From: Minisyncoccota bacterium
Lineage (GTDB): Bacteria; Patescibacteriota; Minisyncoccia; Phycocordibacterales; BOKC01
Assembly (NCBI GenBank): GCA_030583745.1
Contig: CP129473.1
Span: 530 to 64,529, forward strand
Direction: 5' to 3'
DNA length: 64,000 nt
Shown: positions 6,023 through 40,288 of the stretch, one piece after another
Layout: each line of letters begins with the position of its first letter
Position numbering within the stretch: position 1 is the first letter of the stretch
Notes under the pieces: model-generated
The model's input: only the letters and a program-made list of their open reading frames with translations
The model's database searches: none
What the model was told of the DNA's origin: nothing
Made by a program: the position numbers and the translations under genes

Positions 6023-7951
6023 TTAAACTCCTAAAATTACAGGAATCACAATCGGATGCTTGGCTGTTTTTTGGAACAAAAACTGACTGATGTTCTCGGC
6101 GACATTGGACTTAACATATTCAAAGTCTATTGGATTCATGCTGACAGTCGATTCTTCAATTGTTTTTTTGATTATCAGTCTTGCTTGTTGTAGTAAGTCT
6201 TGGGACTCTCTCAAATATACGAAACCGCGAGAGATGATATCAGGTGACTTTTTTAATTTTCCAGTTCTGGTGTTAATGCTGGCGATAATGACAAACATAC
6301 CTTCTTCGGCTAGAGTTTTTCTGTCTCTGATAACAACCTCTTGCATATCGCCAACCGAGTACCCCTCAACCATCATCGGACTGTTTGGAACTTCTTCTTT
6401 GAGAATTTTCATTTTTTGACCGTTGTCGTAAATTTCGATGATTGAGCCGTTATTTGGAATCGCAATATTTTCTACTGGGGTGCCAAGAGACTGGGATAAT
6501 TCGGCGTGTTGCCTTAGCATGTAGTGGTGGCCATGAACTGGCATGAAAAATTTGTAATTTATTTTTTTGTGAATCCATTCCAGCTCGCCGCGGTTGCCGT
6601 GACCGGAAGCATGAATGTCAGAATCAAGATAGGTGATGACTTTCGCTTCCGAGCGATATAGGTTGTCTTTGAGTCTGGTGATGGCATATTCATTGCCGGG
6701 TATTATAGATGATGACAAAAGGACGGTGTCGTTTTTGCTTAGGGTTATGCTCTTGTGTGTCTTATTGGCGATTCTCATGAGCGCTGCATATTCTTCACCT
6801 TGTGCACCGGTAGCGATTAAGACAACCTTTTTTGGTTCGTAGTTGTTTATTTCGTTTACAGAAATCAAGTTTTTAGCTGAAAGGAGATTGAGTTGTTTTA
6901 TTATCTCTAGATTGGATTTCATACTCCGACCTTCTACAGCAACTTTCTTTCCGTATTTTTCAGCCAAGCTAATTATGCTTATAATTCTTTCAACCTGTGA
7001 GGCGAAAGTGCCAATGATCAGACGTCCGGTAACATCTCTTATTATTTTTTCTATATTTTTTACAACAACACTTTCAGATATTGAAAAACCTCGTTTTTCT
7101 ATGCTTGTCGAGTCCATTGTTAGAAGCAGAATTTCTTCTTTTTTGAATCGCTCGTATTGTTTCTCCTCTTCTTCAGTTGGTTTGGATTCAATGTTGTCCA
7201 CGCGGACGTCTTCTATGAAGACAATTTTTCCTACCGGTGTTTCTATGATAAGTCCCATTGAATCGGGAATTGTGTGAGAGATCGGAAATGATTCTATTTT
7301 GAAATGTTCACCCACTCTAAACTTTTCATTACCCTCGATAATCTTTATGTTTAATTCTTGCAGATGGGGAAATTCTTCTTGTCGTCTTTTTATCATCAGT
7401 GCGCCAAATTGACGCGAATAAATCGTCGGATTACCAATCGGTTCAATTATGTAGGGAATTGCGCCGATATGGTCTAAATGTCCGTGAGTGATGAAAAGAC
7501 CTTTTATTCGGTCTTTGTTTTTCATCAAATACTTTATGTTTGGAATTATAAAGTCTATTCCGGGCGTATTTTCTTCTTTGAATTGCAACCCCGCATCAAC
7601 AACAATTATGTCATTTTTATATTCTATAGCTGTCATGTTGCGTCCGACCTCCTCTACTCCTCCAAGCGGAATGATGCGAAGATTGTCGCCAATTGGTGGT
7701 ATTTGCGGAAAACTTTCTTTGGATGTTTGCATTGCCACCCTAGTCTGACGATTTCTAGGTTTTTCAAAGCGTCTCCTATTGGACGAAGGTCTAACTCTTC
7801 TTCTGTCACCACTCCCGTGTCTTCCGCTCTCTTTTCGAAATTGTGACTGGTCTTGAGCCACGTTTATTTTTTGCCCCTCTTCTTTTACGATTGAAGCAAA
7901 AACCGCATTCTTTTTTTCTTTTGGTCTCATGTCTATTATTAATAAAAACAA
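6023..7951 (-). CDS. rnj: Ribonuclease J (metallo-beta-lactamase/beta-CASP) with an Arg-rich N-terminal extension
   Basis: HGHLDHIGA motif, RNase J-like N-terminus (LRIIPLGGVEEVGRNMT) and C-terminal domain. The start codon is ambiguous (possibly the Met near 7930). Confidence 0.85.
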   Translation of the reverse strand: MFLLIIDMRPKEKKNAVFASIVKEEGQKINVAQDQSQFRKESGRHGSGDRRRVRPSSNRRRFEKPRNRQTRVAMQTSKESFPQIPPIGDNLRIIPLGGVEEVGRNMTAIEYKNDIIVVDAGLQFKEENTPGIDFIIPNIKYLMKNKDRIKGLFITHGHLDHIGAIPYIIEPIGNPTIYSRQFGALMIKRRQEEFPHLQELNIKIIEGNEKFRVGEHFKIESFPISHTIPDSMGLIIETPVGKIVFIEDVRVDNIESKPTEEEEKQYERFKKEEILLLTMDSTSIEKRGFSISESVVVKNIEKIIRDVTGRLIIGTFASQVERIISIISLAEKYGKKVAVEGRSMKSNLEIIKQLNLLSAKNLISVNEINNYEPKKVVLIATGAQGEEYAALMRIANKTHKSITLSKNDTVLLSSSIIPGNEYAITRLKDNLYRSEAKVITYLDSDIHASGHGNRGELEWIHKKINYKFFMPVHGHHYMLRQHAELSQSLGTPVENIAIPNNGSIIEIYDNGQKMKILKEEVPNSPMMVEGYSVGDMQEVVIRDRKTLAEEGMFVIIASINTRTGKLKKSPDIISRGFVYLRESQDLLQQARLIIKKTIEESTVSMNPIDFEYVKSNVAENISQFLFQKTAKHPIVIPVILGV

Positions 7952-8011
7952 ACCTGAACGAGAAATTAGGACCTCGTTCGTATTTTTATAATTAAATTAT
8001 TAGTTTTTAAT

Positions 8012-9781
8012 TTATTTTTGTTTAACAAAAATTTTCCAGATTTTATCAGTTTCAATATACCAGTTGTGAACATTTAGAAATCTGTCACTACTTTGTGATA
8101 TCAAACCCAAATCGACTTCTTTCAGTTTTCGAGGTAAGACATAGATGAAATCCGGAGAATAAATAAATATTGCCGGAGAATCTTCCAAAACTTCTTTTTC
8201 AAATTGTATGTATTTTTTCATCCTTTCGTCTTTGTTCAGGATGACTCTGGCTTCTTCAAGAAGTTTGTCAGTAGTTATATTAGCATAAAGTCCGATATTA
8301 AACCCAGGGTCATTTCTTTGAGAAGAGTGCCAGAATGGGAACAAGTCCAAGTCTCTAGCCGCGCTTATCCCAAAGAGCAGGGATTCGTAATTTCTCGGGC
8401 GAATTACGTTTTGACTTAAATCTCCGTTGGCCTCAAAAAATTTTATGTCAACTTCCGCGCCGATTTTCCTCCACTCTTCTTGTAGTATAGTAGCGACGGC
8501 TTTGAGGTCCGGCAGGTTGCCGGTAGAAATTGAAAATCTTAATTCAGAATTGCCGTCTTTGGTCTTTCTTGTTCTAACACTCTCCCCCTCTCCCAACTTC
8601 CAACCGGCACTCTCCAAAATCTCAATTGCTTTTTCTATCCTATTTGAATCTGGAGAAATGTCTTTGTCTTGTTCAAGTTGCGGTAGGTGGGCAATTGGAA
8701 CCGGACTGTTTATTGACCGACCAAATCCCAGAAGGACTTCTTCAACAATTCTTTCTTTGTCTAAAGACATATCAAGCGCCACCCTGACCTCTTTTTGTGT
8801 AAAGATTGAAGATTCGTTCTGGTTTAGAAATACTCCGAAGATTCTCGGTAGAACATTTGTTTTTACCAAGGCCCCCTTTTCTATTAAACCCGAAGCTTCT
8901 TCGGGAGAAATAGAAGATACACTCTCTATCACCCCTCTTTCAAAAGCTTCTATCAGTTCATTTTCGTTGGTATAGAATCGTAAAATTATGTTCTTTAAAA
9001 ACGGTTCTCCCAAAGTGTAATTTCTAAAAGAAGTTAAGTGATAAGAAATTGGCAATCCGTTCGAATCTTTCTTTAGACTTTTTATTCTATATGGTCCGGA
9101 TCCTACGGGCTCTATATTTAATAGACTGAAAGAAAACTGTTCTTGACTTAGGTTGTTCCAGAGGTGTTTAGGCAATATACCTAAAGTTGCATTGTCCAAA
9201 AACATAGCATATGGCTGGCTTAGTATAAAACTTATAGTCTTGCTGTCTTTTACTTCTGTTTTTACACCTTCCCAATTTGCTCTTCTCGGACTTCTCAGAC
9301 TTGGTTCTTGGATTTTGAGAACGGTGAATTCAACATCCGCGGTTGTGACCGGTTTCCCATCATGAAAATATATTTCGTCTTTCAAGATAAAGGTATATTT
9401 AAGCCCGTCCTCGCTGACCTCCCAACTTTCTGCCAAATCAGGAATGAGCTCTCCTTTCGGTGTAGATTTTAAGAGACCGGAATAAATGAGCGCTACCAAG
9501 TCTCTATCTGCGTTTGAGCCGGGCAAAGCCAAAACAGGGTTTGCAAAACGGGGTGAACCGACGATTCCCTCGACCAGAGTTCCTCCGTGTGCTGGTACTG
9601 GAACAGTTAAAGCGTAATTTGCTCGTAGTAGGAGTGTGGCGCTTGAGATTGAGAGTAGGAGAATCAAGAACAGCCCCAAGACTTTTTCCGTCAAAGAAAG
9701 AGAGTCCAAAACTTTTCCAACCTTTTTCTCGCCGGGTAATTCCCAACTTTGTTTCAATAAGATAGATGCTTTGTTTAACAT
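8012..9781 (-). CDS. ABC transporter substrate-binding protein (family 5, peptide/nickel type)
   Basis: N-terminal TM/signal. Size and composition fit SBP family 5. Confidence 0.6.
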   Translation of the reverse strand: MLNKASILLKQSWELPGEKKVGKVLDSLSLTEKVLGLFLILLLSISSATLLLRANYALTVPVPAHGGTLVEGIVGSPRFANPVLALPGSNADRDLVALIYSGLLKSTPKGELIPDLAESWEVSEDGLKYTFILKDEIYFHDGKPVTTADVEFTVLKIQEPSLRSPRRANWEGVKTEVKDSKTISFILSQPYAMFLDNATLGILPKHLWNNLSQEQFSFSLLNIEPVGSGPYRIKSLKKDSNGLPISYHLTSFRNYTLGEPFLKNIILRFYTNENELIEAFERGVIESVSSISPEEASGLIEKGALVKTNVLPRIFGVFLNQNESSIFTQKEVRVALDMSLDKERIVEEVLLGFGRSINSPVPIAHLPQLEQDKDISPDSNRIEKAIEILESAGWKLGEGESVRTRKTKDGNSELRFSISTGNLPDLKAVATILQEEWRKIGAEVDIKFFEANGDLSQNVIRPRNYESLLFGISAARDLDLFPFWHSSQRNDPGFNIGLYANITTDKLLEEARVILNKDERMKKYIQFEKEVLEDSPAIFIYSPDFIYVLPRKLKEVDLGLISQSSDRFLNVHNWYIETDKIWKIFVKQK

Positions 9782-9825
9782 AAAAATTAGCCGCCTATTG
9801 TTTAGACGCTTTTAACTTAGAAGAT

Positions 9826-10056
9826 TTAAAGCAGAAGTGCCAAGATTGAAGCCAAAACAAAAATAACAGCTAGAACAATAGTAGTGTTGAATATTGTTTT
9901 TTCAAACCCACGTCTTTCAAAATGGCTTCCGCTACCGTCTCCTCCGCCAAAAGCTCCGCCAACCCCAGCTTCTGAACGCTGGAGCATAACAAGGGCTATG
10001 ATGGCGATTGATAAAGCGACCTGTATAAAAGGTAATAAGCTCTGTATTAGACTCAT
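9826..10056 (-). CDS. secG: Preprotein translocase subunit SecG
   Basis: Two TM helices flanking a Gly-rich loop (GVGGAFGGGDGSG), as is typical for SecG. Confidence 0.8.
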   Translation of the reverse strand: MSLIQSLLPFIQVALSIAIIALVMLQRSEAGVGGAFGGGDGSGSHFERRGFEKTIFNTTIVLAVIFVLASILALLL

Positions 10057-10191
10057 TTATCAGATTATACCAGGGCTGACAAATAAAGCAAACCGTTAGA
10101 TATTGACCCGATCAATCTGATTGTTTATACTAACTGCGCTTAATAACTAAAAATGGTCGCATTTATAAGTCTTATTTTCTTTGTTTAACCT

Positions 10192-10524
10192 ATGAGCAAG
10201 AAAGATTTTCCCCCAAAAAGGTCGTCTTTAAAGGTAATTCCTCTTGGTGACAGAGTTTTAGTAAGACCTCTTTTGGAAGAAGAAACCGGGAAGAAAAATC
10301 AATTCGGGATTATTATTCCAGAGACGATTGATAAGGAAAAACCAGAGCAAGGAGAAGTTCTAGCTGTCGGCGAAGGCAGGTATGAAGATGGTAGGGTGGT
10401 GCCGATGCGATTAAAAGCCGGTGACAAGGTGTTGTTTTCAAAATACGGATATGATGAGGTAAAGGTTGACGACGAAGAACTTTATATTTTGAAAGAAGAA
10501 AGTATATTAGCAATAATAAAATAG
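10192..10524 (+). CDS. groES: Co-chaperonin GroES
   Basis: VIPLGDRVLV...GEVLAVGEG pattern. Lies directly upstream of groEL. Confidence 0.9.
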   Translation: MSKKDFPPKRSSLKVIPLGDRVLVRPLLEEETGKKNQFGIIIPETIDKEKPEQGEVLAVGEGRYEDGRVVPMRLKAGDKVLFSKYGYDEVKVDDEELYILKEESILAIIK

Positions 10525-10603
10525 GCGCTAGGAAATTAGGCACTAGGCGCTAGGGAAATTCCTAAAGCCCAAGACCTAACAACCTAAAACCTATACTCTA
10601 TAA

Positions 10604-12274
<1,671 letters not shown>

Positions 12275-15079: not shown

Positions 15080-15153
15080 GTGGAATTGGGGAAATGGAAT
15101 TAATTTCTTCCCTAACCCTATACCCTAAACCCTAGTGGCTAGACCCTAATCTT

Positions 15154-29021: not shown

Positions 29022-30017
29022 TTATTCCAACTGTTCCGGTTTATAATTTGCCGGCGCTTTGGCCAGAAATTCTTCCAACTTTTCTTGGCTCAAAAGGCCT
29101 TCTTGGGCGCCGATGTATTGAACAACAGACATTGAGTTTATCGGTCCCCAGACAAGGGCCTCGGGAATTGATTTACCTAAAATTAAAGCGCAGGTAAAAG
29201 TGGAGGAAAACGAGTCGCCGGCGCCGGTGCGATCAACCGGAGGTTTAGGGTCCGGATACATCGGCATATGCCAGATTTCTTTACCATCATAAGTGTAGGC
29301 ACCTTCCGGACCATCGGTAATAACGACAATTTTCGGCCCCAAATCATGCATCGCTTTCAAGAGTTCCGGAATTTCCGATCCTTTTTTATTTGTGATTTTT
29401 TGCGCTTCCTCTTTGTTGCAGAAGAAAAGCTCGGTTAGTTCGTATAGGTCCTTCAGTTTTTCGGCGCCCAATTTAATCTGAAAAGTGCCCGGCTGAAAAG
29501 CCAGTTTGATTTCCGGATTTTTTCGCAACCAGTCGGCAATCTCGAGATGATGCGGAAGGGAATTGGAAGCTAATGAGCTCAAATAAATCCATTTTGGCGC
29601 CGGATTTATTTCCGGTAATTTATAATCGTATTCTTGGTGTTTGACCAAAATTGTTCGCTCTTCTTTGTAGCGTAGAACAAAGTGATAATTTGATTTCATC
29701 CCCTTATGAACTTGCACATAATCTGTCGCTACTTTTTCTTTTTTTAATTGAGCCAGTTGCTCTTCGCCATAAGAATCGTCCCCCATATTTGTCAGGAGGG
29801 CCGAATTAAGTCCTAAGCGGTGGGCAGCTACAGCGGCGTTCGGACTATTGCCCACGGCCGGCACAATGACCACATCTCGGAAAGGTAATTTTTCACCGAA
29901 ACGCATACAAAGCTCCTTACTCTTTTCAGGGTTGTCGGTTTCTATCCAGGCCTCTTCAAGCTCAATAAAAGCGTCTGTCACAATATCGCCAATCGCCAAA
30001 AAATCAATTTTAGACAT
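29022..30017 (-). CDS. PfkB-family carbohydrate kinase
   Basis: C-terminal TGAGDSF motif and N-terminal GG motif. Confidence 0.8.
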   Translation of the reverse strand: MSKIDFLAIGDIVTDAFIELEEAWIETDNPEKSKELCMRFGEKLPFRDVVIVPAVGNSPNAAVAAHRLGLNSALLTNMGDDSYGEEQLAQLKKEKVATDYVQVHKGMKSNYHFVLRYKEERTILVKHQEYDYKLPEINPAPKWIYLSSLASNSLPHHLEIADWLRKNPEIKLAFQPGTFQIKLGAEKLKDLYELTELFFCNKEEAQKITNKKGSEIPELLKAMHDLGPKIVVITDGPEGAYTYDGKEIWHMPMYPDPKPPVDRTGAGDSFSSTFTCALILGKSIPEALVWGPINSMSVVQYIGAQEGLLSQEKLEEFLAKAPANYKPEQLE

Positions 30018-31029: not shown

Positions 31030-31280
31030 GCGCTAGGTTTTTAGGCTCTAGGGTCTAGCCAATAGGGTTTAGGGCGTAGTCCGCCTCCGCCAGTTGACGG
31101 AGGCGGCTTGGCTGGAAAAGCCCTTATCGGGTATTCTATGAGTTAACGGGTGTTGAACTTTGGGGTTGAATTTACCTACGCGAGTATTGACATATTTATT
31201 AAAATATGATAGGTATATTAACGGAATTCACAGGGTGTTCCTGTGGAAGTTCTTCGTTAGCTTGCTGAAAGGAGCAAAGC

Positions 31281-31946
31281 ATGAAGCCTCGTACAGTTCG
31301 GGTCCTCTGCAGGGGTATTTCGCCCATTCTCATGGACCAGATGACAGAGGAGACCCTCGACAGCCTCGCAACCAGCGTCCGGCAGAACAAACCCAAGGAC
31401 AGACCGTTTGCGGATGTCGCGGAGGAGAAAATCTACCGCGACCCTATGACAGAGCGCATCGGCATCCCCTCGGAGATGCTCTTCGCTTGTTTGGTCGCAG
31501 CGGGCCGGAAGGTCAAGAACGGCAAGAGCCAGATCTCCACAGCAACCTCCTCGACCGTTCCGGACTTTCTCGAGATCCCCGACTTTTTCTTTCCGTTTCT
31601 CGGCATCCCCGAGAACGTGGAGCCGCGATCGGAAGACGAGAGGCAGCACTGGAAGGTGGATAAGAGACGAGGGCGTCTGCCCATCAACGGAACCGCTGTC
31701 TGCCTCATCCGTCCCCGCTTCAACAACTGGGAATTCAAGGTCACAGTGATCTACGATGCCGACAAGATCGATGGTTCTACGCTGAAGGCTCTCTTTGTGA
31801 ATGCCGGCAGTGGCCAAGGTCTTGGTTCGTTCCGCCCCAACTGCAGGGGTACCTTCGGGAAGTTCGTTGTCGTTTCTTGGGAGGAGACGGCCGGCGCTGT
31901 GAAGGAGGACGAGACGGAAGAGACGGACGTTCTCGCGGCTGCATGA
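31281..31946 (+). CDS. Hypothetical 221-aa protein with a C-terminal glycine-rich loop (possibly RAMP/Cas6- or Cas7-like). Unverified.
   Basis: Strong SD (aaaggag, 6 nt before the ATG). GC-rich with good coding periodicity. Segment FVNAGSGQGLGSFRPNCRGTFGKF is reminiscent of RAMP glycine-rich loops. Terminator at 32007..32045. Overlapping antisense ORFs are treated as spurious. Confidence 0.5.
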   Translation: MKPRTVRVLCRGISPILMDQMTEETLDSLATSVRQNKPKDRPFADVAEEKIYRDPMTERIGIPSEMLFACLVAAGRKVKNGKSQISTATSSTVPDFLEIPDFFFPFLGIPENVEPRSEDERQHWKVDKRRGRLPINGTAVCLIRPRFNNWEFKVTVIYDADKIDGSTLKALFVNAGSGQGLGSFRPNCRGTFGKFVVVSWEETAGAVKEDETEETDVLAAA

Positions 31947-32006
31947 CTGTGTGAAGTCAAGTCCAGCATCCTGGACTATACTCTAGTTAAGTACGCTCGC
32001 GTGCTC

Positions 32007-32045
32007 AAACCCCGTCGCTTCACCGTGGCGGGGTTTCTTTTCTAA
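32007..32045 (+). terminator. Intrinsic terminator after the 221-aa gene
   Basis: Stem aaaccccg/cggggttt followed by tttcttttct. Confidence 0.7.
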
Positions 32046-32134
32046 ACATCCAACGGTTTATACTACAGTCAAGTAGAGTCTAGCAAGGTAGGGTTAGGTC
32101 GAGTGCAATAGAGTTCAGTAGTTCAGTATAGAGT

Positions 32135-32681
32135 GAAGTTGCTAAAAAGTAACTTTGCTAATTAGAGGAGGTTAAAATTGTAGTGACGTGTAGTTCTGTT
32201 CCGTCGTCTGCGGTGGGGTGAAGTATACGGCAGAATCTTCGAAAGGGGATTCTGTCAATTATATATCGTGTCGTCCACTACAGTGCAGTTCGGCAAAGTT
32301 AGGTACGGTGGTCAGGTGGCGATTTTCGAGAGAAAGCCGCCACCTCTTTGCTTTCGGTGCGGTGTTTTGGGGTCCAATACCATGAACTATTGTGCAACAA
32401 GAGTCTTCGAAAGGAGATTTTACTGTTTTTAACTACAGCTCCCCAGACTACTCTTAGGTAGTGTTGCCTGACGCAAGGTATAGTGCAGGGCAGAATCTTC
32501 GAAAGGAGATTCTGTCGCTTTCTTCAGTGGAGTTAAGTTACCTCCCGTCGCGTATAGTCCACTACACGTCAGAATATCTGAAAAGATATTCTGACATTTC
32601 CTTGGTCTGTAGCAACCTGCAGTAAGGTGGGCTCCAGTATAGTTTAGTTCAGGTTAGAATCACTGAAAAGTGCTTCTAACA
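32135..32681 (+). repeat. Array 1: seven non-identical hairpins about 80-97 nt apart, capped by GNRA tetraloops (6x GAAA/GAGA, one AAAA)
   Basis: Hairpins: 32135-32156, 32231-32254 (cagaatcttc GAAA ggggattctg), 32315-32344 (..GAGA..), 32399-32421, 32491-32514, 32570-32593 and 32653-32680. Stems differ but keep pairing through compensatory and G.U changes that only pair on the + strand RNA. Motifs ACUACAG and GUAUAG recur between hairpins. Confidence 0.7.
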
Positions 32682-32744
32682 CTTACGATTTAGGTGGTGT
32701 GTAGTTCACTTAAGTAGACTCCAGCAAGCTACAGTATTGTACAC

Positions 32745-32785
32745 AACCCGCTTCGTCTTAAATGGTGAAGCGGGTTTTTGTTTGA
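32745..32785 (+). terminator. Intrinsic terminator closing array 1
   Basis: Stem aacccgcttc/gaagcgggtt followed by tttgtttg. Confidence 0.75.
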
Positions 32786-32872
32786 CAAGATCCAAAAAAT
32801 ATGTATTCTTGTTACTGGAAGTTCATTGTGAACTTGCACCATCTGAAACATCTGGAATATTGGAGATCAAGA

Positions 32873-34741
32873 ATGACAACAGAAACGAGAAAAAGAGGCG
32901 CTCTGAACTTGGAACGCCTTGCGGGAAACTTCCCAAGCCGATTCTCAAGAATGAGAGTTGCGCAGGAAGAAGCACTCAAATTCGTGGCAGAAAACGGCTC
33001 AAGCATTGTCGAAGCACCAACAGGGTCGGGAAAGACTGCGATTGAGATTGCCATTCTACGCGCTGGACAAGAGGTGGGAATGGAAACTCTCTTCCTCATC
33101 GTTCCCAACAAGACGATCCTCGGACAAATCAGAGAAGAGTTTCCAGGTGATGTGAAAGTCGCATTGGGACGAAACGAGCATCCGTGTCTCTACTACGAGG
33201 AGAAGAAGACAGAGATTACAGTTGAAGGAGTCAGGCTTCTGTCAGATGATCCTGAAAGCATCAAAGCGGATGAGATTCCGTGCTCGATGCTTCTTGATTG
33301 TCCGCATCGAGTTGACCAGGAAACTGGAGAGACTCACACAAAGGGTGCCTTCCCGTGCCCTTACCTTCAGCAAAAGTACGAGGCCAAACAGGGCGGTATC
33401 GTGCTTTGCACGATGTCTTTCTATCTCTTCACACAACTTTTCAGCAGAGAGTGGGAACGGCCGAATATCTTGGTGATCGATGAAGCACATCGCATCGCCG
33501 AGGTCTTTCGAAACGCTCTGTCCTACGAAATCTCTGATCACCACATCGAGAAGGCGGTAGGAATCCTCAAGCTCATTGGAGCAGGAGAAGAATCGACAGC
33601 GCTGGAGTTGTTTCTCAAGAAGATGATTAGAATCATCAAGGGGAAATCCAGAGGGAAGCTGCCTCTCCTCGAACCAGAGGAGCTCTACACCTTGATAGAG
33701 ACGCTATCACTTATCGACACCAAGGAGTTGGGAAAGAAGGTGAGTGGCGCGGTCAAGGAAGGCAAGCTTAACGCCAAGGCAGACAGAACAACGCTTCGCA
33801 AGCTCGAGGTGCTGATTCGAGACTTGAAGCGCTACATTCGATCTTTTGAGTTCTCTATGCCGGCTTCCAACCGACATGCTCTCAACTACACCTACGCCAC
33901 CTGGCGCGAAGAAAAGCAAAAGGGTCAGAAAGTCCAGTACCAACTGGTCATCAAGGCCTACTATGTCGCCCCGCTCATCAAGAAAGTGATGGGCGATACG
34001 ACGGTCTCTTTTTCCGCCACCATTGGCGATCCGGATGTCTTTGGTTTCGAAACCGGAATCAGAGATCCGTTCGTTAGCTTGGGCGGACACTTTCCAGCCA
34101 ACAACACCAGAATCTTTATGCCCTCGGACACTCCGAATCTGGCTATGAATGCCAGGTCAAATCAGGAGCCAACCAGGGTTCTGCGTCGGATCGCCAAGGC
34201 CTGCAAGCGATTTTCCCAAAAGGGAATTCGTTCGCTGGTCGTGGTAGTTTCCAATGCAGAGCGAGACAAATTCCTAATGCTCGCGGAAGAAGAAGACGTC
34301 TATGCTATAAGCTACGGCAACGGAGTCACCGCAAGGGATGCCGCCCAACTCTTCAAGGGAGGAGAAGGTGATGTTCTCGTTGGCACTGCCTCAAACTACG
34401 CTGAAGGTGTTGATCTTCCAAAGAATCTGGCACCGGTCATCTTCGTCCTCCGACCCGGATATCCGAATCCAAAGGACCCGGGCACAATCTTTGAGGAGAA
34501 GAGATTTGGTAGTCAGCGCTGGCAGATCTGGAACTGGAGGGTGATGCTTCAGGCTCTTCAGGCTCGAGGCAGAAACCTGCGAAGCGTCAACGATATCGGC
34601 GTGACTATCTTCATCTCCCAGCAGTTTAGGCGATTTGTTTTCGCATCTCTGCCGGAGAGTCTGAAGGAGTCATATGTTCGTGACAAGACCTTCGATGAGT
34701 GTGTCAATAGTACTCTTGAACACCTGAATAGAGTCCTGTAG
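32873..34741 (+). CDS. DinG/XPD (Rad3)-family SF2 DEAH helicase with a 4-Cys (putative Fe-S) insertion
   Basis: Walker A is EAPTGSGKT and motif II is VIDEAHR. Four Cys lie between motifs I and II (HPC, IPC, DCPH, FPCPY). The C-terminal helicase motif LVGTASNYAEGVDLP is DinG-like. SD GGAG precedes the ATG at 32873. An alternative start is at 32801. Confidence 0.75.
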   Translation: MTTETRKRGALNLERLAGNFPSRFSRMRVAQEEALKFVAENGSSIVEAPTGSGKTAIEIAILRAGQEVGMETLFLIVPNKTILGQIREEFPGDVKVALGRNEHPCLYYEEKKTEITVEGVRLLSDDPESIKADEIPCSMLLDCPHRVDQETGETHTKGAFPCPYLQQKYEAKQGGIVLCTMSFYLFTQLFSREWERPNILVIDEAHRIAEVFRNALSYEISDHHIEKAVGILKLIGAGEESTALELFLKKMIRIIKGKSRGKLPLLEPEELYTLIETLSLIDTKELGKKVSGAVKEGKLNAKADRTTLRKLEVLIRDLKRYIRSFEFSMPASNRHALNYTYATWREEKQKGQKVQYQLVIKAYYVAPLIKKVMGDTTVSFSATIGDPDVFGFETGIRDPFVSLGGHFPANNTRIFMPSDTPNLAMNARSNQEPTRVLRRIAKACKRFSQKGIRSLVVVVSNAERDKFLMLAEEEDVYAISYGNGVTARDAAQLFKGGEGDVLVGTASNYAEGVDLPKNLAPVIFVLRPGYPNPKDPGTIFEEKRFGSQRWQIWNWRVMLQALQARGRNLRSVNDIGVTIFISQQFRRFVFASLPESLKESYVRDKTFDECVNSTLEHLNRVL

Positions 34742-34799
34742 CCTACAGTTTGGTGCGCCAAGTTATTCTAGCGTTTTCTAGAGTCGGGTTCACTACACA

Positions 34800-34835
34800 A
34801 GCGTTCCGAGTAAAATCGGGACGCTTTTTTGTTTG
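34800..34835 (+). terminator. Intrinsic terminator after the helicase
   Basis: Stem agcgttccg/cgggacgct with a G.U pair, followed by ttttttgtttg. Confidence 0.7.
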
Positions 34836-34946
34836 TTATTCCTTTTTTATAAAAAATATGTTATAAAAGTTTTTGGCTTGTTCTTTATAGTTACCTAAAC
34901 CATTCTTTTCTGCGGTGCACTGCCGTATCCTTTCGTGCCCTATAGA

Positions 34947-35243
34947 TCCAGATCCTCGAAAGAGGTTCTGGATAATTTCAGTTACCTCATGTTCTGTACG
35001 GTATGCTGTCGTAACCTTCTCTGAAGGTCTAAACTCCTGAAAGGGGGTTTAGACGATTTTCCAGTAAAGTTCGGCTCAATAACGTAGCACTTACTAAGAT
35101 GCAGGACAGATAAGACAGAGATGTTTTATCTTGTCATTACCAGACTGGTTAGATACAGTGAGGTTAGGTGTCGTGAAGTTGAGTTTAGTCATCTGAAGTC
35201 GTCTGGACTATACGACAGCAGAGATTGAAAAATCTTTGCTGTC
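34947..35243 (+). repeat. Array 2: four or more GNRA-capped hairpins (GAAA, GAAA, GAGA, GAAA) at about 80-110 nt spacing
   Basis: Hairpins: 34947-34972, 35027-35054, 35108-35131 and 35214-35243. The upstream (GUAUAG-like) and CUACAG motifs are the same as in array 1. Confidence 0.65.
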
Positions 35244-35319
35244 ATTGCTCCCTACCCTATACCACTCTTCACTACAGTGTATCCCGGTGTTCTCAAGTGG
35301 TTTTCAGTTAAGTACACAA

Positions 35320-35350
35320 GCTCCGCTTCGGCGGGGCTTTTCTATTGATT
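35320..35350 (+). terminator. Intrinsic terminator closing array 2 (UUCG tetraloop)
   Basis: gctccgc ttcg gcggggc followed by ttttctattgatttt. Confidence 0.7.
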
Positions 35351-35371
35351 TTCAAATAAAATTATGCGACA

Positions 35372-36082: not shown

Positions 36083-37450
36083 ATGTTTAATTTAAAATCA
36101 TTTTCTAAAAATCTATCTATTTTTTTAGTCGTGGGACTAGTTTTTTCTCAAGCAGTCTTTTCTTTACCAACCTTCGGTCAATTAAGTGAGAACTTGGAAA
36201 GGAGGGAGTCGGAACTGCGATCTGAACTGTCTGATATAGAAAAAGAGATCGCAATCTGGCAAAAGGAATTACAGCAAAAACAAAACCAATCGGCTTCTTT
36301 TGAGAGAGACATCGCGATTTTAAATGCCAAAATAAAAGAAGCCCAAGCAACAATTAGGGCTAGGAATATTGAAATAGAAAGACTTGGCCGAGAGATAAAC
36401 TTCCGGCTTCAAACGATAGACGAGCTTGACTCAAAAATTGAACGGAGCAAAGAATCCTTGTCCCAGCTTATTCGTCGAACAGACGAAGCACAATCTTTTT
36501 CATTGGTAGAAATTGTGCTAAGTAATGAAAATCTTTCAGACTTTTTGGTTAACTGGGATGATTTTGAATCAATCAATAAAGCTCTGCAGGTGTCTTTTGT
36601 TGAGATTCGAGACGCCAAACATCAATTGGAAATTGAAAAGGAACGACTTGGTGTTCAAAGAAATAAAGAGGTTGATATAAGGGCTTCCAACGAAGCAGAG
36701 AGGAGAAGAATAGAACAGAACGAAGCAGAGCAAAAACACCTTCTGGAAATTAACAGAACACAAGAGCGAACTTATGCTCAAATTGTTGCTGAAAGACAAA
36801 GAAAAGCGGCGCAGATAAGAGCGGCTTTGTTTGCTTTGCGCGATACGGCAGCGATTCCTTTCGGTGATGCCCTACGTTATGCCGAAGCAGCCCAACAAAA
36901 AACCGGAGTCCGCCCCGCCTTTTTACTTGCGGTTATTACTCAAGAGTCAAACATGGGGGCGAATATCGGAACTTGCAATCGACCACAAGACACTTTGAAG
37001 TGGAGAGAGATAATGCCGGGACCTGATGACATTGCAAAGGGATGGTCTAAAAGAAATGATCAAGCGGCCTATTTAAGAATTACTAGCGAGCTTGGCCTTG
37101 ATCCGGATTCAATGCCTTTGTCTTGCCCGTGGGGCAATGGCTGGGGAGGAGCAATGGGCCCGTCGCAATTTATTCCAACAACCTGGGAAATTTATAAATC
37201 AAAAGTAGCAACAGCTTTAGGAAAGTCAGTTGTTAGCCCCTGGGATCCACAGGATGCTTTTATGGCCTCATCAATTTATTTAGGTGAACTTGGGGCAGGT
37301 AATGGAGGATTTACCGCAGAGAGGACGGCGGCTCTAAGGTATTATGCCGGTGGTAATTGGAATAAACCACAGAATGCTTTTTATGGTGATCAGGTTATGG
37401 CTCATGCCAGAAGAATTCAAGAAGAAATGATTGACCCGCTTAGTTTCTAA
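36083..37450 (+). CDS. Secreted coiled-coil protein with a C-terminal lytic transglycosylase (SLT-like) domain
   Basis: Signal/TM, long coiled coil, then AVITQESNMG...MGPSQFIPTTW transglycosylase signature. Confidence 0.7.
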   Translation: MFNLKSFSKNLSIFLVVGLVFSQAVFSLPTFGQLSENLERRESELRSELSDIEKEIAIWQKELQQKQNQSASFERDIAILNAKIKEAQATIRARNIEIERLGREINFRLQTIDELDSKIERSKESLSQLIRRTDEAQSFSLVEIVLSNENLSDFLVNWDDFESINKALQVSFVEIRDAKHQLEIEKERLGVQRNKEVDIRASNEAERRRIEQNEAEQKHLLEINRTQERTYAQIVAERQRKAAQIRAALFALRDTAAIPFGDALRYAEAAQQKTGVRPAFLLAVITQESNMGANIGTCNRPQDTLKWREIMPGPDDIAKGWSKRNDQAAYLRITSELGLDPDSMPLSCPWGNGWGGAMGPSQFIPTTWEIYKSKVATALGKSVVSPWDPQDAFMASSIYLGELGAGNGGFTAERTAALRYYAGGNWNKPQNAFYGDQVMAHARRIQEEMIDPLSF

Positions 37451-37574
37451 ATTTTAGGATACCTCGAGCTTTTTGCCTTTAGACACGTTGGTCTTGGCCC
37501 ATAGTTGGAAAATTATACAGAGACTTGCATTTATCTATTTTTTCCACTATATTTATGCTGTTTAATAAAAAATT

Positions 37575-37856
37575 ATGAGAAAAGATATACATCCACCATA
37601 TTTCCCCAAAGCGGTTTTTGAGTGTGTGTGCGGAAAAGAAATAAAAGTCGGCTCTACGAAAGAGAAGATGAGTATTGAAATTTGCGATAATTGCCATCCG
37701 TTTTACACCGGGCAGGACAAAGTTCTTGATACTGCCGGTCGAGTAGAGAAATTTAAAGCCAAGAGGGCTTCTGCTAAAAGCGAAAAGATAAAATCTTTAG
37801 CTGAAAAGAAGGCCGACAAGAAAAAGAAAAGAGAGTCATCTAAAAAAGAATCTTAA
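37575..37856 (+). CDS. rpmE: Ribosomal protein L31 with a Lys-rich C-terminal extension
   Basis: MRKDIHPPYF...CxC...CxxCHPFYTG zinc-ribbon L31 signature. Confidence 0.88.
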   Translation: MRKDIHPPYFPKAVFECVCGKEIKVGSTKEKMSIEICDNCHPFYTGQDKVLDTAGRVEKFKAKRASAKSEKIKSLAEKKADKKKKRESSKKES

Positions 37857-37866
37857 ATTATTCTGT

Positions 37867-37905
37867 GACAGCCCCGTTCCGCCTTTCTGGCGGAACGGGG
37901 CTGTC
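37867..37905 (+). terminator. Perfect 17-bp hairpin terminator after rpmE
   Basis: gacagccccgttccgcc tttct ggcggaacggggctgtc. Confidence 0.7.
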
Positions 37906-37923
37906 TCTTGGTAAAATAAAACC

Positions 37924-38886
37924 ATGGAAGACTTGGAAAAATTTCGAAATAATCCAAAAACCAGTTTCCTATTCTCGGTTTTTGAAAAATTAGGAAAAGA
38001 GAGTAGTGAAGTGAGAGAAATGCTTGAAAAAGACCCTGGTTTAAAGGAATTGTCCGAGGAGGAATTAAGTAGTCTGGAAAATCAAAGACTTGAAATTCTT
38101 CAACAAATGACAAATTTGCTCAAAGAGGAAGAGTCCGAAGAGAAGTTTCCTAATGAAATTATACTTGAAGTTCGAGCTGGTGCTGGCGGAGAAGAAGCGG
38201 CGCTTTTTGCCAAGCGTCTGGCTGAAATGTATGAAGAATATTCAGTTAGACAAAACTGGTCTTTTAGAAATATAGATGAATCAAGGAGTACACTTGGAGG
38301 ATACAAAGAAGCTTCTTTTGAAATCAAGGGCCGTGGTGTATTTGAAAAACTAAGATTTGAAACTGGCGTTCATCGTATCCAGCGAGTACCTCCAACAGAA
38401 AAGTCAGGTCGAGTTCACACCTCAACTGCTTCCGTCGCGATATTACCGATCAGAAAAATATCTAAGATTGAAATCAATCCTTCTGATTTGGAATTTGAAA
38501 CTTCCAGATCTGGTGGAGCAGGTGGCCAAAATGTTAACAAGGTAGAGACGGCAGTGAGAATAATTCATAAACCGACCGGAATTGATGTTCGCTCAACGGC
38601 CGAGAGAAGCCAGCTTAAGAACAAAGAAAAAGCTCTTAGCATATTAACCGCCAAACTCGAAGCATTACACGAAGAACAAGAAGCAAAAAAATATTCCGAA
38701 CAAAGAAAGAGCCAGATAGGTACCGCCGATCGTTCGGAAAAAATCAGAACGTACAATTTTTTACAAGATAGAATAACCGATCATCGGATAAAGAAGAGTT
38801 GGTCGCAAATAGAAAACATTCTTGCCGGAGAACTTGAAGATATTATTGAAGATTTAAGCAGTTCTAATCAAGAATCCAAGGTTTAA
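37924..38886 (+). CDS. prfA: Peptide chain release factor 1
   Basis: GGQ motif ([11 protein letters not shown]). RF1-type recognition region [14 protein letters not shown] (PxT-like). Confidence 0.8.
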
Positions 38887-38964
38887 TCCTGGAATTTGCA
38901 CAAGTTTAGTATATTTGTTAGTATCTCTACTCGTATTGTGTTGTGATTTATACGTTTTAAATTT

Positions 38965-39678
38965 ATGTCAACCGGAATGATTTCAAAAGACACTGATCTT
39001 AAAGACCTGCTTACGGCAGGAGCTCATTATGGTTACTCAAAATCGAGAAGACATCCTTCGGCAAAAGAATTTATTCTCGGTTCTAAAAATAACATCGAAA
39101 TTTTTGACTTGGAGAAAACCTTGCCACTTCTTGAATCAGCCAAGGATTTTGTTAAAAACATTGTTGCTAATGGTGGCCAAATTCTTTTTGTGGGAGCAAA
39201 AAGCGAAGCAAAAAATGCCATAAAGACTGGTGCGGATTTAGCGGAAATGCCTTATGTGACAAACCGATGGATTGGTGGGACGATAACTAATTTTCCAGAG
39301 ATCAAAAAAAGAGTAGATAGGTTGCAGGATCTTCTGGGACAGAGAGAGAAAGGAGAATTATCAAAATATACAAAAAAAGAGAGATTGCTTTTGGACAGGG
39401 AAATTGAAACTTTGGACAAGATGTTTTCAGGATTGGTCTCTATGAAGAAATTGCCAGCCGCTATATTTGTTATTGACCCAAGAAGAGAAAAAACCGCTGT
39501 TGCCGAAGCAAAAAGAAAGAAAATTCCGGTTGTCGCTTTGGCTGGCTCGGATTGTGATCTAAAGCAGGTTGAGTTTTCTATTCCGGCAAACGATGCTTCA
39601 ATGGCCAGCATAAAGTATTTTGTTGAGCAGATTGTCGAAGCGATAAAAATTGGAAGGAAACAACAAAAGTCAGAATAG
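38965..39678 (+). CDS. rpsB: Ribosomal protein S2
   Basis: S2-family N-terminus (LLTAGAHYGY) and overall length. Precedes tsf. Confidence 0.85.
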   Translation: MSTGMISKDTDLKDLLTAGAHYGYSKSRRHPSAKEFILGSKNNIEIFDLEKTLPLLESAKDFVKNIVANGGQILFVGAKSEAKNAIKTGADLAEMPYVTNRWIGGTITNFPEIKKRVDRLQDLLGQREKGELSKYTKKERLLLDREIETLDKMFSGLVSMKKLPAAIFVIDPRREKTAVAEAKRKKIPVVALAGSDCDLKQVEFSIPANDASMASIKYFVEQIVEAIKIGRKQQKSE

Positions 39679-39709
39679 AGAATTAAGTTAAACAAAATGT
39701 TTTTATAAA

Positions 39710-40288
39710 ATGATTTCCACCGACCAAGTAAAAGAATTAAGAGACAAGACGGGTATTTCTATAATGCAATGTCGAAAAGCTCTCGAGGAAGCGGGTGGCG
39801 ACATGGGTAAGGCCCAAATCATTTTGCAAAAACAAAGCAAGGCGGTTGCCGAAAAAAAATCTGACAGAGAATTGAACGCTGGTGTGATTCAGGCATATAT
39901 CCACTCAAACGGTTCGGTTGGAGCCATGCTTGAGCTTACCTGTGAGACCGATTTTGTTTCGAAGAACGAAGAGTTCAAGAATCTTGCTTATGACTTGGCA
40001 ATGCAGGTTGCGGCCACCAATCCGAAATATTTGTCTAAAGAAGACATAAGCCAAGAGGCCAAAAAAGAGGCCGCTGAAGTTTTTTCTAAAGAGGTTGCAG
40101 ATAAGCCGGATGAATTAAAAGAAAAAATATTGTCTGGCAAGCTGGACGCGTTTTTTGCTGAGCAAATTTTACTGGAACAACCATTTATTAAAAATCCTGA
40201 TATCAAGATTGTTGGACTTATAGAATCAGCAGTTCAGAAATTTGGCGAAAAAATCAGAATTTCAAGATTTAGTCGGTTTTCGATATAA
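39710..40288 (+). CDS. tsf: Elongation factor Ts (short form)
   Basis: N-terminal UBA-like VKELRDKTGISIMQCRKALEEAGGDM. Confidence 0.88.
   Translation: MISTDQVKELRDKTGISIMQCRKALEEAGGDMGKAQIILQKQSKAVAEKKSDRELNAGVIQAYIHSNGSVGAMLELTCETDFVSKNEEFKNLAYDLAMQVAATNPKYLSKEDISQEAKKEAAEVFSKEVADKPDELKEKILSGKLDAFFAEQILLEQPFIKNPDIKIVGLIESAVQKFGEKIRISRFSRFSI

What the first reader, a model, noticed from the sequence alone, without database searches (positions are those of the whole stretch)
31030..35371. GC-rich island pairing a DinG-like Fe-S helicase and a glycine-loop protein with two arrays of covarying GNRA-tetraloop hairpins
The segment between two conserved housekeeping genes (a 2-hydroxyacid dehydrogenase and rplY) is clearly richer in G+C than the rest of the window. 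It carries only atypical content, arranged as four terminator-insulated modules. Module 1 is a 221-aa protein with a RAMP-like glycine loop. Module 2 is a ~550-bp array of seven hairpins at about 83-nt periodicity. Module 3 is a DEAH helicase of the DinG/XPD type with a 4-Cys insertion. Module 4 is a second hairpin array. The hairpins are not identical repeats. Their stems differ while preserving pairing, including G.U pairs that only work in + strand RNA, and almost all are capped by GAAA or GAGA tetraloops. Short ACUACAG and GUAUAG motifs recur in the linkers, as in tandemly diverged ~83-nt RNA units. A helicase of the family used by type IV CRISPR systems (Csf4/DinG) sits next to a possible RAMP and repeat-like structured RNA arrays, without a canonical CRISPR array. 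This does not match any system I can name. It could be a minimal or degenerate type-IV-like module, a helicase-loaded scaffold RNA, or a new mobile or defence element.
Basis: partly seen in the sequence, partly recalled or inferred. Interest (0 to 1): 0.9.

Follow-up and report, generated by a model that had tools for sequence, protein, structure and literature searches.

The report
Helicase-linked VIPR guide-RNA system
This GC-rich island in a tiny-celled (CPR) bacterium is a VIPR system, an RNA-guided DNA-recognition system related to CRISPR and first described in 2026 preprints; here it is paired with an iron-sulfur helicase, so it is a real but already-known kind of system, of a subtype nobody has yet tested.

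Summary
In detail: the GC-rich island, the 221-aa RAMP protein, the Fe-S DinG/XPD helicase, four terminators and two arrays of covarying GNRA hairpins are all there. Every linker between hairpins is an unbroken tract of 9-16 pentamers (T-NNN-G/C) in one register, ending at the hairpin.

This is the architecture of VIPR systems (bioRxiv 10.64898/2026.04.26.720920 and .720927). A Vipr RAMP protein polymerises on vrRNAs made of YNNGG-type pentamers with a structured 3' tail, and it sits beside one accessory gene.

A profile of the 221-aa family hits only SUSP1 Vipr among all PDB sequences (E=7e-12, full length). Distant relatives carry textbook C-NN-GG repeats. About 38 close relatives, nearly all in CPR bacteria, keep the same vipr, array and helicase layout.

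I count 15 candidate guide RNAs. The guide information lies in the linkers, and the hairpins are 3' caps.

It is not a degenerate type IV CRISPR: there is no CRISPR array and no Cas5, Cas6 or Cas8. The helicase keeps four Fe-S cysteines that CasDinG lacks.

No targets were found in ten collection scans, so what it targets and the helicase's role remain inferred. Verdict: a new member of a known, very recently described kind.

The parts
31187..31280 (+). Left edge of the cassette: promoter-like TTGACA (31187-31192) and the vipr 5' leader, including a 22-nt motif shared with the helicase leader (31244-31265) and an AGGAG ribosome-binding site
   Evidence: Similarity to the 77%-identity relative L169 starts exactly at 31187. 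The shared leader is repeat D18. Promoter function is inferred only.
31281..31946 (+). vipr gene: 221-aa stand-alone RAMP (Cas7-like RRM core, thumb hairpin, G-loop GLGSFRPNCRGTFG)
   Evidence: Family profile against PDB sequences gives one hit only, SUSP1 Vipr, E=7.2e-12 over the full length. AF2 pLDDT 91.4. Foldseek to Csm3 and type VII Cas7 at E about 1e-7. Best viral match TM 0.66/0.70. phrog_4652 E=1e-17.
31947..32036 (+). vrRNA candidate U0: about 11-13 pentamers directly after the vipr stop codon, ending in terminator hairpin 32007-32036
   Evidence: Conserved with point changes in L169.
32049..32776 (+). vrRNA array 1: eight units, U1-U8. Tract/tail coordinates: U1 32049-32128/32133-55; U2 32179-228/32229-56; U3 32259-313/32314-45; U4 32348-97/32400-21; U5 32424-88/32489-516; U6 32518-67/32568-95; U7 32598-652/32653-80; U8 32690-744/terminator 32745-76
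   Evidence: Single-register T-NNN-S pentamer tracts of 10-16 units, each abutting a hairpin. Hairpin covariation. Period-5 statistic.
32782..32872 (+). Helicase promoter-like site (TTGACA-16-TATTCT, 10 of 12) and 5' leader with the shared 22-nt motif (32816-32837) and a GGAG ribosome-binding site
   Evidence: (D18). The promoter and leader sequence are conserved in L169.
32873..34741 (+). vap-type accessory gene: 622-aa XPD/DinG-family SF2 helicase with a 4-Cys Fe-S domain
34742..34826 (+). vrRNA candidate U9: 11-12 pentamers directly after the helicase stop codon, ending in terminator hairpin 34799-34826
34830..34880 (+). AT-rich spacer with the motif AAAAAATATGTTAT, also found in front of vipr and the helicase; possible promoter of array 2
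   Evidence: Read from the sequence; inference only.
34881..35339 (+). vrRNA array 2: five units, U10-U14. Tract/tail coordinates: U10 34881-945/34946-73; U11 34977-5026/35027-54; U12 35060-104/35108-31; U13 35149-213/35214-43; U14 35248-317/terminator 35318-39

Best explanation
The island (about 31187-35339) is a helicase-associated VIPR (Viral Interference Programmable Repeat) system on the chromosome of a Candidatus Paceibacterota (CPR) bacterium.

Shown here:
- The 221-aa protein is a member of the Vipr family of stand-alone RAMPs.
- It is flanked by 15 candidate vrRNA genes. Each is an unbroken tract of 9-16 pentamers (T at position 1, three variable positions, G/C at position 5) that ends at a stable hairpin. 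Ten tails are GNRA-capped hairpins, one has another loop, and four are the transcription terminators themselves.
- A conserved Fe-S XPD/DinG helicase is the only other gene.
- The vipr, array and helicase layout is conserved in dozens of CPR genomes.

Inferred from the published SUSP1 and P. fulva work:
- One Vipr protomer binds each pentamer. It sequesters the constant bases (the pyrimidine and the G) and presents the variable bases.
- The hairpin caps the 3' end, where filament assembly and R-loop formation nucleate.
- The filament recognises double-stranded DNA of a competing genetic element by non-contiguous base pairing.

Inferred by analogy with type IV-A CRISPR-DinG and type I Cas3:
- The helicase is recruited to the bound filament or R-loop. 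It translocates 5'-3' to unwind or strip the target, which extends or enforces silencing or interference.

The relaxed repeat, with three rather than two variable positions, means the exact pairing rule in this clade may differ from the published 1-nt-skip rule.
For: - Vipr membership: the profile of 35 homologs hits only 36pp_D 'SUSP1 Vipr protein' among 177,635 PDB sequences, E=7.2e-12, positions 2-193 of 203 to residues 2-192 of 202. The single-sequence hit is E=2.5e-4.
- Fold: RAMP/Cas7 fold at pLDDT 91. A closer match to a phage stand-alone RAMP, TM 0.66/0.70.
- Contact residues conserved in the helicase clade: R138 33/34, R179 34/34, W178 to F 33/34, K82 to R 32/34, K88 as K/R 34/34.
- Pentamers: 176 pentamers in 15 tracts. 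Position 1 is T 89% and C 11% with no purine. Position 5 is G/C 88%. 12 of 15 tracts abut the tail with no spacer.
- Specificity: the motif statistic is met at 65 positions, all in the island's non-coding + strand, and nowhere else in 64 kb. Shuffles give a mean of 3.3 qualifying windows against 84 observed.
- Family link: distant Vipr relatives (24-39% identity) carry canonical C-NN-GG tracts on the vipr strand.
- Clade architecture: close relatives carry the helicase and T-NNN-G tracts. Reciprocal linkage from the helicase side is 3 of 3.
- Tails: 84% of 203 tracts in the clade are followed by a hairpin with MFE at or below -10, against 12% in shuffles. The fold is stronger than the reverse complement in 166 of 203.
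- Covariation: 89% paired against 58% within the window. 94.9% against 54.6% across 15 loci on the unselected outer stem.
- Published definition and mechanism.
Against: - No natural target was found. Local tests of seven pairing rules with 206 guides equal the controls. Eight viral and two metagenome exact-pattern scans gave 0 hits.
- The repeat is not canonical YNNGG: position 4 is unconstrained.
- SUSP1 D177 is Ser here, and the residue equivalent to SUSP1 H17 is Asp here (Asn or Asp across the clade).
- The tail is a simple hairpin, not the SUSP1 pseudoknot.
- The context is a cellular chromosome with no phage genes, whereas about 71% of published VIPRs are viral or proviral.
- Expression, processing, RNP formation and the helicase's role are untested.
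- I could not see the preprint's figures or tables, so the assignment to its helicase-bearing type is an inference.
Confidence: 0.88

Rival explanations
1. A minimal or degenerate type IV CRISPR-Cas module. The RAMP would be a Csf2/Cas7 remnant, the helicase Csf4/CasDinG, and the hairpin units decayed CRISPR repeats.
For: - PADLOC's best helicase model is typeIV_DinG (E=1.8e-37).
- The RAMP has a Cas7-like fold.
Against: - There is no CRISPR array in the 64 kb. The hairpin units are 60-73% alike, and their stems covary rather than being conserved.
- No Cas5, Cas6 or Cas8 gene is present; the island has only two ORFs.
- The RAMP hits no Cas7 model in Pfam, NCBIfam or PADLOC, and hits Vipr as its only PDB sequence relative.
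- NCBIfam Csf4 scores 19.6 bits against a cut-off of 400.
- The helicase keeps four conserved Fe-S cysteines and lacks the roughly 103-aa N-terminal domain that defines CasDinG.
- The linkers carry a 5-nt periodic code, which spacers do not.
Confidence: 0.03
2. A domesticated VIPR-derived regulator. It would have the same Vipr-vrRNA machinery, but be used by the CPR cell to control its own genes or those of its bacterial host or partner, rather than to fight phages or mobile elements.
For: - The location is chromosomal, between housekeeping genes, with no phage, integrase or defence genes nearby.
- The island carries none of the 32 SNPs that separate a 99.8%-identical strain.
- No viral target was found in eight viral-collection scans.
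- VIPR acts by transcriptional repression in the published cases.
Against: - No self-target was found in the 64-kb window under any rule.
- Array content turns over completely between 77%-identical relatives. Arrays reach 18-26 guides in some genomes. Both are typical of arms-race guides.
- The cassette's GC content is foreign to the host in 21 of 22 loci, and it sits in a different neighbourhood in each genome, indicating horizontal mobility.
- Only 64 kb of the host genome could be searched for targets, so the negative result is weak.
Confidence: 0.07
3. The hairpin arrays are structured RNAs or REP-like or terminator-like elements unrelated to the two proteins: a scaffold RNA, sRNA array or attenuators that happen to lie in the island.
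For: - The hairpins are stable and covary.
- Several look like terminators to a consensus scan.
Against: - The tract-plus-hairpin units co-occur with vipr in every related locus examined and on the same strand, and are absent from the rest of each locus.
- The pentamer register ends exactly at the stem in 12 of 15 units.
- No Rfam family matches.
- The same protein family is experimentally shown to bind such pentamer RNAs.
Confidence: 0.02

Closest known systems
VIPR systems (Vipr + vrRNA + vap), bioRxiv 10.64898/2026.04.26.720920 and 10.64898/2026.04.26.720927; characterised examples are Escherichia phage SUSP1 and a Pseudomonas fulva prophage (type II)
   Same: - Stand-alone roughly 200-aa RAMP homologous to SUSP1 Vipr.
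- Flanking non-coding arrays of tandem pentamers with an invariant pyrimidine and a G.
- Structured 3' tail on each unit.
- Guide genes both upstream and downstream of the accessory gene.
- Minimal two-gene locus with no CRISPR array and no adaptation genes.
- Conserved Arg, aromatic and Lys contact residues.
   Different: - The repeat is T-NNN-G/C (three variable positions; position 1 is T rather than C) instead of Y-NN-GG.
- The tail is a 9-13-bp hairpin, usually GNRA-capped, or the terminator itself, instead of a pseudoknot.
- The accessory gene is an Fe-S XPD/DinG helicase rather than a DNA-binding protein.
- The host is a CPR bacterial chromosome rather than a phage.
- The helicase-bearing types are mentioned in the preprints but not characterised.
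- The pairing rule and targets are unknown here.
Type IV-A CRISPR-Cas (Csf1-Csf2-Csf3-Cas6 effector + CasDinG/Csf4)
   Same: - A RAMP (Cas7-like) filament on a guide RNA, combined with an XPD/DinG-fold 5'-3' helicase and no nuclease.
- It probably works like this system, with a guide-bound filament that recruits a helicase.
   Different: - No CRISPR array and no Cas5, Cas6 or Cas8.
- The guide is a pentamer code, not a contiguous spacer.
- The helicase retains four Fe-S cysteines, has no CasDinG N-terminal domain, and fails the Csf4 family model.
- The RAMP is not detected by any Cas7/Csf2 model.
XPD/Rad3 and DinG repair helicases (SF2, Fe-S cluster family)
   Same: - Walker A and DEAH motifs.
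- A 4-Cys Fe-S insertion in the first RecA-like helicase domain (HD1), and an arch-type insertion.
- Profile E=1.9e-19 to XPD.
   Different: - It is not a housekeeping repair gene. It is strictly linked to vipr and the guide arrays, its composition is foreign to the host, and it sits at a different place in each genome.
- It scores far below the NCBIfam cut-offs for DinG, YoaA and Rad3.

Membership tests
VIPR system | Vipr protein: a stand-alone RAMP with RRM core, glycine-rich loop and thumb, homologous to characterised Vipr | tested here: met
   Profile against PDB sequences: the only hit is SUSP1 Vipr, E=7.2e-12, full length. AF2 pLDDT 91.4 with a beta-alpha-beta RRM core, a beta-hairpin at 125-147 and the G-loop GLGSFRPNCRGTFG. 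Foldseek prob 1.0 to Csm3/Cas7.
VIPR system | vrRNA: at least 4 (typically 9-16) tandem pentamers of YNNGG or a related consensus (NNNGG, YNNNG, NNNNG) next to vipr | tested here: met
   15 tracts of 9-16 pentamers; position 1 is 100% Y and position 5 is 88% G/C, which fits the YNNNG-type relaxed consensus named in the preprint's methods. Exclusive to the island. The strict YNNGG form is not met: position 4 is G in only 18%.
VIPR system | Structured, conserved 3' tail following the repeat tract | tested here: met
   A hairpin directly follows every tract. Covariation within the window and across loci. 84% of 203 clade tracts are followed by a stable hairpin against 12% in shuffles. The form differs: a hairpin, not a pseudoknot.
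VIPR system | Minimal locus: vipr plus one accessory (vap) gene, with no CRISPR array or adaptation genes | tested here: met
   Only two ORFs lie between the four terminators. There is no CRISPR array in 64 kb. The helicase is conserved next to vipr in about 38 loci. The preprints state that types III-V carry nucleases or helicases.
VIPR system | Conservation of residues that hold the constant bases and clamp DNA in SUSP1 (H17, R138, D177, W178, R179, K82, K88) | tested here: inconclusive
   R138, R179, K82 (as R) and K88 are conserved, and W178 is F. D177 is Ser here, and Asp in most of the clade. The H17 column is Asn or Asp in both clades. Neither substitution tracks repeat position 4.
VIPR system | Non-contiguous DNA targeting (1-nt skip rule) with natural targets in competing mobile elements | tested here: inconclusive
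   No target under any of seven rules in 3.4 Mb of local DNA. 0 exact hits in eight viral and two metagenome scans. The collections allow exact matches only, and CPR phages are poorly sampled.
VIPR system | vrRNAs expressed as roughly 100-nt species that co-purify with Vipr | not testable with these tools
   Needs small-RNA sequencing and pull-down.
Type IV CRISPR-Cas | CRISPR array of near-identical direct repeats with variable spacers | tested here: not met
   there are no such repeats. Hairpin units are 60-73% alike and their stems covary.
Type IV CRISPR-Cas | Multi-subunit effector genes (Csf1/Cas8-like, Csf2/Cas7, Csf3/Cas5, usually Cas6) | tested here: not met
   Only one RAMP gene is present, and it has no hit to any Cas model in Pfam, NCBIfam or PADLOC.
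Type IV CRISPR-Cas | CasDinG/Csf4: DinG with a vestigial Fe-S domain (cysteines lost) and an essential N-terminal domain | tested here: not met
XPD/DinG Fe-S helicase superfamily | SF2 motifs, a 4-Cys Fe-S domain between Walker A and B, and the Helicase_C_2 C-terminal domain | tested here: met

The most novel reading that the evidence does not exclude
The helicase-linked, CPR-restricted VIPR clade is mechanistically distinct from the characterised VIPRs in two ways. Its T-NNN-G repeats would present three rather than two variable bases per protomer, giving a different read-out rule. Its conserved Fe-S XPD/DinG helicase would be the effector loaded at the Vipr R-loop or triplex. That would make it the functional counterpart, and possibly an evolutionary relative, of the Cas7-plus-DinG logic of type IV-A CRISPR. 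It would also give ultra-small episymbiotic bacteria a compact programmable interference system.
Probability: 0.25. Interest if true: 0.75.

Novelty: new member of a known kind. Interest (0 to 1): 0.45.

Why it matters
VIPR is a newly described mode of RNA-guided DNA recognition, proposed to predate CRISPR. So far it has been characterised only for the types with DNA-binding (II) or nuclease (III, V) accessory genes.

This locus is a clean, compact (4.2 kb) example of the uncharacterised helicase-bearing form:
- 15 guides with well-defined boundaries.
- A relaxed repeat code.
- An intact Fe-S helicase.
- Dozens of orthologous loci for comparison.

It offers a concrete substrate for three questions: how a helicase cooperates with a Vipr filament, whether the pairing code changes when the repeat has three free positions, and what CPR bacteria, which mostly lack CRISPR, use such systems against.

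It also shows that public annotation misses these loci. In NCBI the helicase is called a 'helicase C-terminal domain-containing protein', none of the 40 vipr homologs has a functional name, and the called-gene tables show no genes across the arrays.

Tried and rejected
1. D177-to-Ser as the cause of the relaxed position 4. Within the helicase clade, Asp and Ser loci have the same position-4 G fraction (p=0.36). Rejected.

2. Loss of the H17 equivalent as the cause. That column is Asn in most members of both clades. Rejected.

3. Target identification.
   - Seven pairing rules (NN with 0-3 skipped bases, NNN with 0-2), tested on the window's 15 guides against the window and all loci, match no better than shuffled controls, apart from trivial self-matches.
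   - Run-length tests with 206 clade guides under the non-self rules (NN with 0-2, NNN with 0-1, NNNN with 0 skipped bases) also equal the controls.
   - One 9-unit run (an L013 guide in L089, 2-skip rule) is at chance level and lies out of codon phase.
   - Exact 1-nt-skip patterns for U1, U2, U5, U7, U11 and U13 gave 0 hits in viral contigs. U1 and U7 gave 0 hits in metagenomes.

4. Heptad TAGGNNN repeat at 31036-31085 as part of the system. Near-identical copies lie at about 15.1 kb and 10.5 kb, so it is a host intergenic repeat.

5. Rfam. Nothing above threshold. The weak GcvB hit (23 bits against a threshold of 42) is spurious, and there are no hammerhead ribozymes between units.

6. Mobile-element hallmarks. 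No tRNA, integrase, target-site duplication or terminal inverted repeat at the borders.

8. A pooled position-4 statistic at a loose threshold was contaminated by GC-rich coding windows. It was replaced by direct inspection and a stricter threshold.
Full report
**Observation.** The region 31030-35371 is richer in G+C than its surroundings. Sliding windows reach 0.52-0.57 at 31.0-32.0 kb and 0.50-0.53 at 33.0-34.75 kb, against about 0.40 outside. vipr is 0.58 (GC3 0.73) and the helicase 0.51 (GC3 0.58), while neighbouring genes have GC3 of 0.32-0.40. The island holds two ORFs on the + strand. One is 221 aa (31281-31946). The other is a helicase that most likely starts at ATG 32873, behind a GGAG site. 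That gives 622 aa, the length called independently on two other contigs. Four strong intrinsic terminators divide it into modules. Array 1 has seven hairpins, six of them GNRA-capped. Array 2 has four GNRA hairpins, and stems are 9-13 bp. The ten GNRA hairpins covary: 89% of cells are paired against 58% in shuffles, 11 of 13 pairs change on both sides, and slid registers give 40-52%. Fifteen G.U pairs make the fold specific to the + strand.

Every linker between hairpins parses, in a single register, into an unbroken run of 9-16 pentamers that starts with a pyrimidine and ends exactly at the next stem. Over 176 pentamers, position 1 is T 89% and C 11%, with no purine. Position 5 is G 56% and C 32%. 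Position 4 leans to A (47%), and positions 2-3 are unconstrained. Similar tracts start directly after the stop codons of both genes and after the last hairpin of each array. In those units the transcription terminator serves as the hairpin. This gives 15 units (U0-U14). A motif statistic (T at position 1 plus G at position 5, at least 14 of 20 over ten pentamers) is met at 65 positions. All are on the + strand in the island's non-coding DNA, and none occur elsewhere in the 64 kb on either strand.

**Identification.** The 221-aa protein has no Pfam, NCBIfam or PADLOC hit. It does match one PDB sequence, 'SUSP1 Vipr protein' (36pp_D, E=2.5e-4). A profile of 35 homologs raises this to E=7.2e-12 over the full length, and it remains the only PDB sequence matched at E of 1 or below. 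Two 2026 preprints describe VIPR systems. Their features are:
- A roughly 20-kDa stand-alone RAMP (Vipr) polymerises one protomer per repeat on vrRNAs.
- The vrRNAs are made of 9-16 YNNGG pentamers followed by a structured 3' tail.
- Vipr sequesters GGY and presents NN for non-contiguous pairing with dsDNA (the 1-nt-skip rule), forming an R-loop triplex.
- Loci are minimal: vipr, one accessory vap gene and flanking vrRNA genes.
- Seven types exist. Some use the relaxed repeats NNNGG, YNNNG or NNNNG, and types III-V carry nucleases or helicases.

The AF2 model of the window protein (pLDDT 91.4) is a Cas7-like RAMP. Foldseek gives prob 1.0 and TM about 0.5 to Csm3 and type VII Cas7. It is closer still to an uncharacterised phage protein (TM 0.66/0.70). 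It also matches phrog_4652, a phage family of unknown function (E=1e-17).

**Comparative evidence.** I fetched 80 loci from species-representative genomes and 80 from IMG/VR viral contigs, plus loci found by protein identity. They split cleanly.
- **Close relatives.** Proteins 34% or more identical to ours are nearly all from Patescibacteria/CPR MAGs (Paceibacterota, Saccharibacteria, Andersenbacteria, Doudnabacteria, Taylorbacteria and others). They sit next to an ortholog of the helicase wherever the contig has room (about 35 loci), and they use T-NNN-G repeats.
- **Distant relatives.** Those at 24-39% identity, from other bacteria and all 80 viral contigs, lack the helicase. They show textbook C-NN-GG arrays on the vipr strand, for example L045 '...CATGG CAAGG CTAGG TGGGG CAAGG CGGGG...'.

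The distant group ties the protein family directly to the published vrRNA. The close group defines our locus as a helicase-associated, relaxed-repeat subtype. Starting from the helicase instead, 3 of 3 homologs on long contigs have vipr upstream plus tracts. Across the clade, 84% of 203 tracts are followed by a stable hairpin, against 12% for shuffles, and the fold beats the reverse complement in 166 of 203. GNRA loops (70 of 181) are concentrated in a few lineages. For 39 GNRA tails from 15 loci, the outer six stem pairs were not used for selection. They are 94.9% paired against 54.6% in shuffles, with 87 double-sided changes against 20 expected.

**Mechanism.** The identity of the parts and their conserved linkage are shown. 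The following steps are inferred from the SUSP1 and P. fulva work:
- Vipr coats each pentamer tract.
- The retained Arg, aromatic and Lys residues hold the constant bases and clamp DNA. In the helicase clade R138 is 33/34, R179 34/34, W178 to F 33/34, K82 to R 32/34 and K88 as K/R 34/34.
- The hairpin caps the 3' end, where assembly and R-loop formation start.
- The variable bases read a dsDNA target.

The helicase's role is inferred by analogy with type IV-A DinG and Cas3. It would load at the R-loop and unwind or strip the target. The preprint authors themselves say this is unknown. This clade has three unconstrained positions per pentamer, so the published 1-nt-skip rule may not apply. I could not derive the rule.

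**Targets.** None were found. Local tests of seven rules match no better than controls. Ten exact-pattern collection scans returned nothing. This is weak negative evidence, because the collections allow exact matches only, CPR phages are poorly sampled, and the rule is uncertain.

**Evolutionary notes.** vipr and the helicase exceed the GC content of their flanks by 12 and 7 points on average, in 21 and 20 of 22 CPR loci. The cassette lies in a different housekeeping neighbourhood in each genome. Both suggest horizontal spread, although no tRNA, integrase, target-site duplication or inverted repeat marks the borders. One strain is identical and another is 99.8% identical, with none of its 32 SNPs in the island. 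A relative with 77% Vipr identity keeps U0 with point changes but has an entirely different array 1 and an extra 102-aa ORF. Guide content therefore turns over quickly.

**Verdict.** The locus is a member of the recently described VIPR family, of the helicase-bearing kind that has been noted but not studied. It is not categorically new. Its value is as a well-resolved example with a large set of orthologs for comparison.

Noticed in passing
window 31036-31085 (+), about 15100-15148 (-), 10537-10610 (both strands): Heptad repeats TAGGNNN (for example TAGGGTC TAGCCAA TAGGGTT TAGGGCG) recur in several intergenic regions with near-identical copies. This is a dispersed host repeat of unknown function, not part of the VIPR cassette. 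The unit TAGGGTT is a cyclic permutation of TTTAGGG.
   Followed up: partly
window 31244-31265 and 32816-32837: The 5' leaders of vipr and of the helicase share a 22-nt motif (TGGAAGTTCTTCGTTAGCTTGC and TGGAAGTTCATTGTGAACTTGC, 82% identical). The helicase copy contains a 7-bp palindrome. The motif is also present in L169, in front of the extra 102-aa ORF that precedes its helicase, so it may be a common regulatory or processing element.
   Followed up: partly
window about 31203, 32797 and 34852: The motif AAAATATG(T/A) recurs downstream of TTGACA-like hexamers in front of vipr, the helicase and array 2. It may be an extended -10-type promoter element of this cassette or host.
   Followed up: no
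L169:1676-1984: A relative with 77% Vipr identity carries an extra 102-aa ORF (MASGPKKGVLRGPK...) between array 1 and the helicase. The window has no such ORF. It could be a second accessory gene.
   Followed up: no
L008, L013, L014 (Saccharibacteria MAGs) and L173:2768-4660, 6905-11728: Some helicase-clade loci have very large guide arrays: 18-26 tracts, or up to about 6 kb of arrays around the helicase. In L008, L013 and L014 most of the array is on the strand opposite to vipr.
   Followed up: partly
L028 (Woesearchaeota MAG) and L078 (Gammaproteobacteria MAG): Two helicase-clade loci are assigned to non-CPR MAGs. This could reflect horizontal transfer or binning contamination.
   Followed up: no
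window 29652-29952 and 37027-39865 compared with L166: All 32 SNPs that separate a 99.8%-identical strain lie outside the island. Eleven of them cluster in 300 bp of the PfkB-family carbohydrate kinase gene (29022-30017, - strand), which suggests a recombination tract.
   Followed up: no
window 52281-52502: A low-complexity CCACCN/CCTCCN repeat of about 220 bp, probably coding for a Pro-rich or Gly-rich stretch. It was the only hit in a window-wide search for short-range direct repeats.
   Followed up: no
window 35121-35345: A weak Rfam GcvB match (23 bits against a gathering score of 42) overlaps vrRNA units U13 and U14. It is considered spurious.
   Followed up: yes
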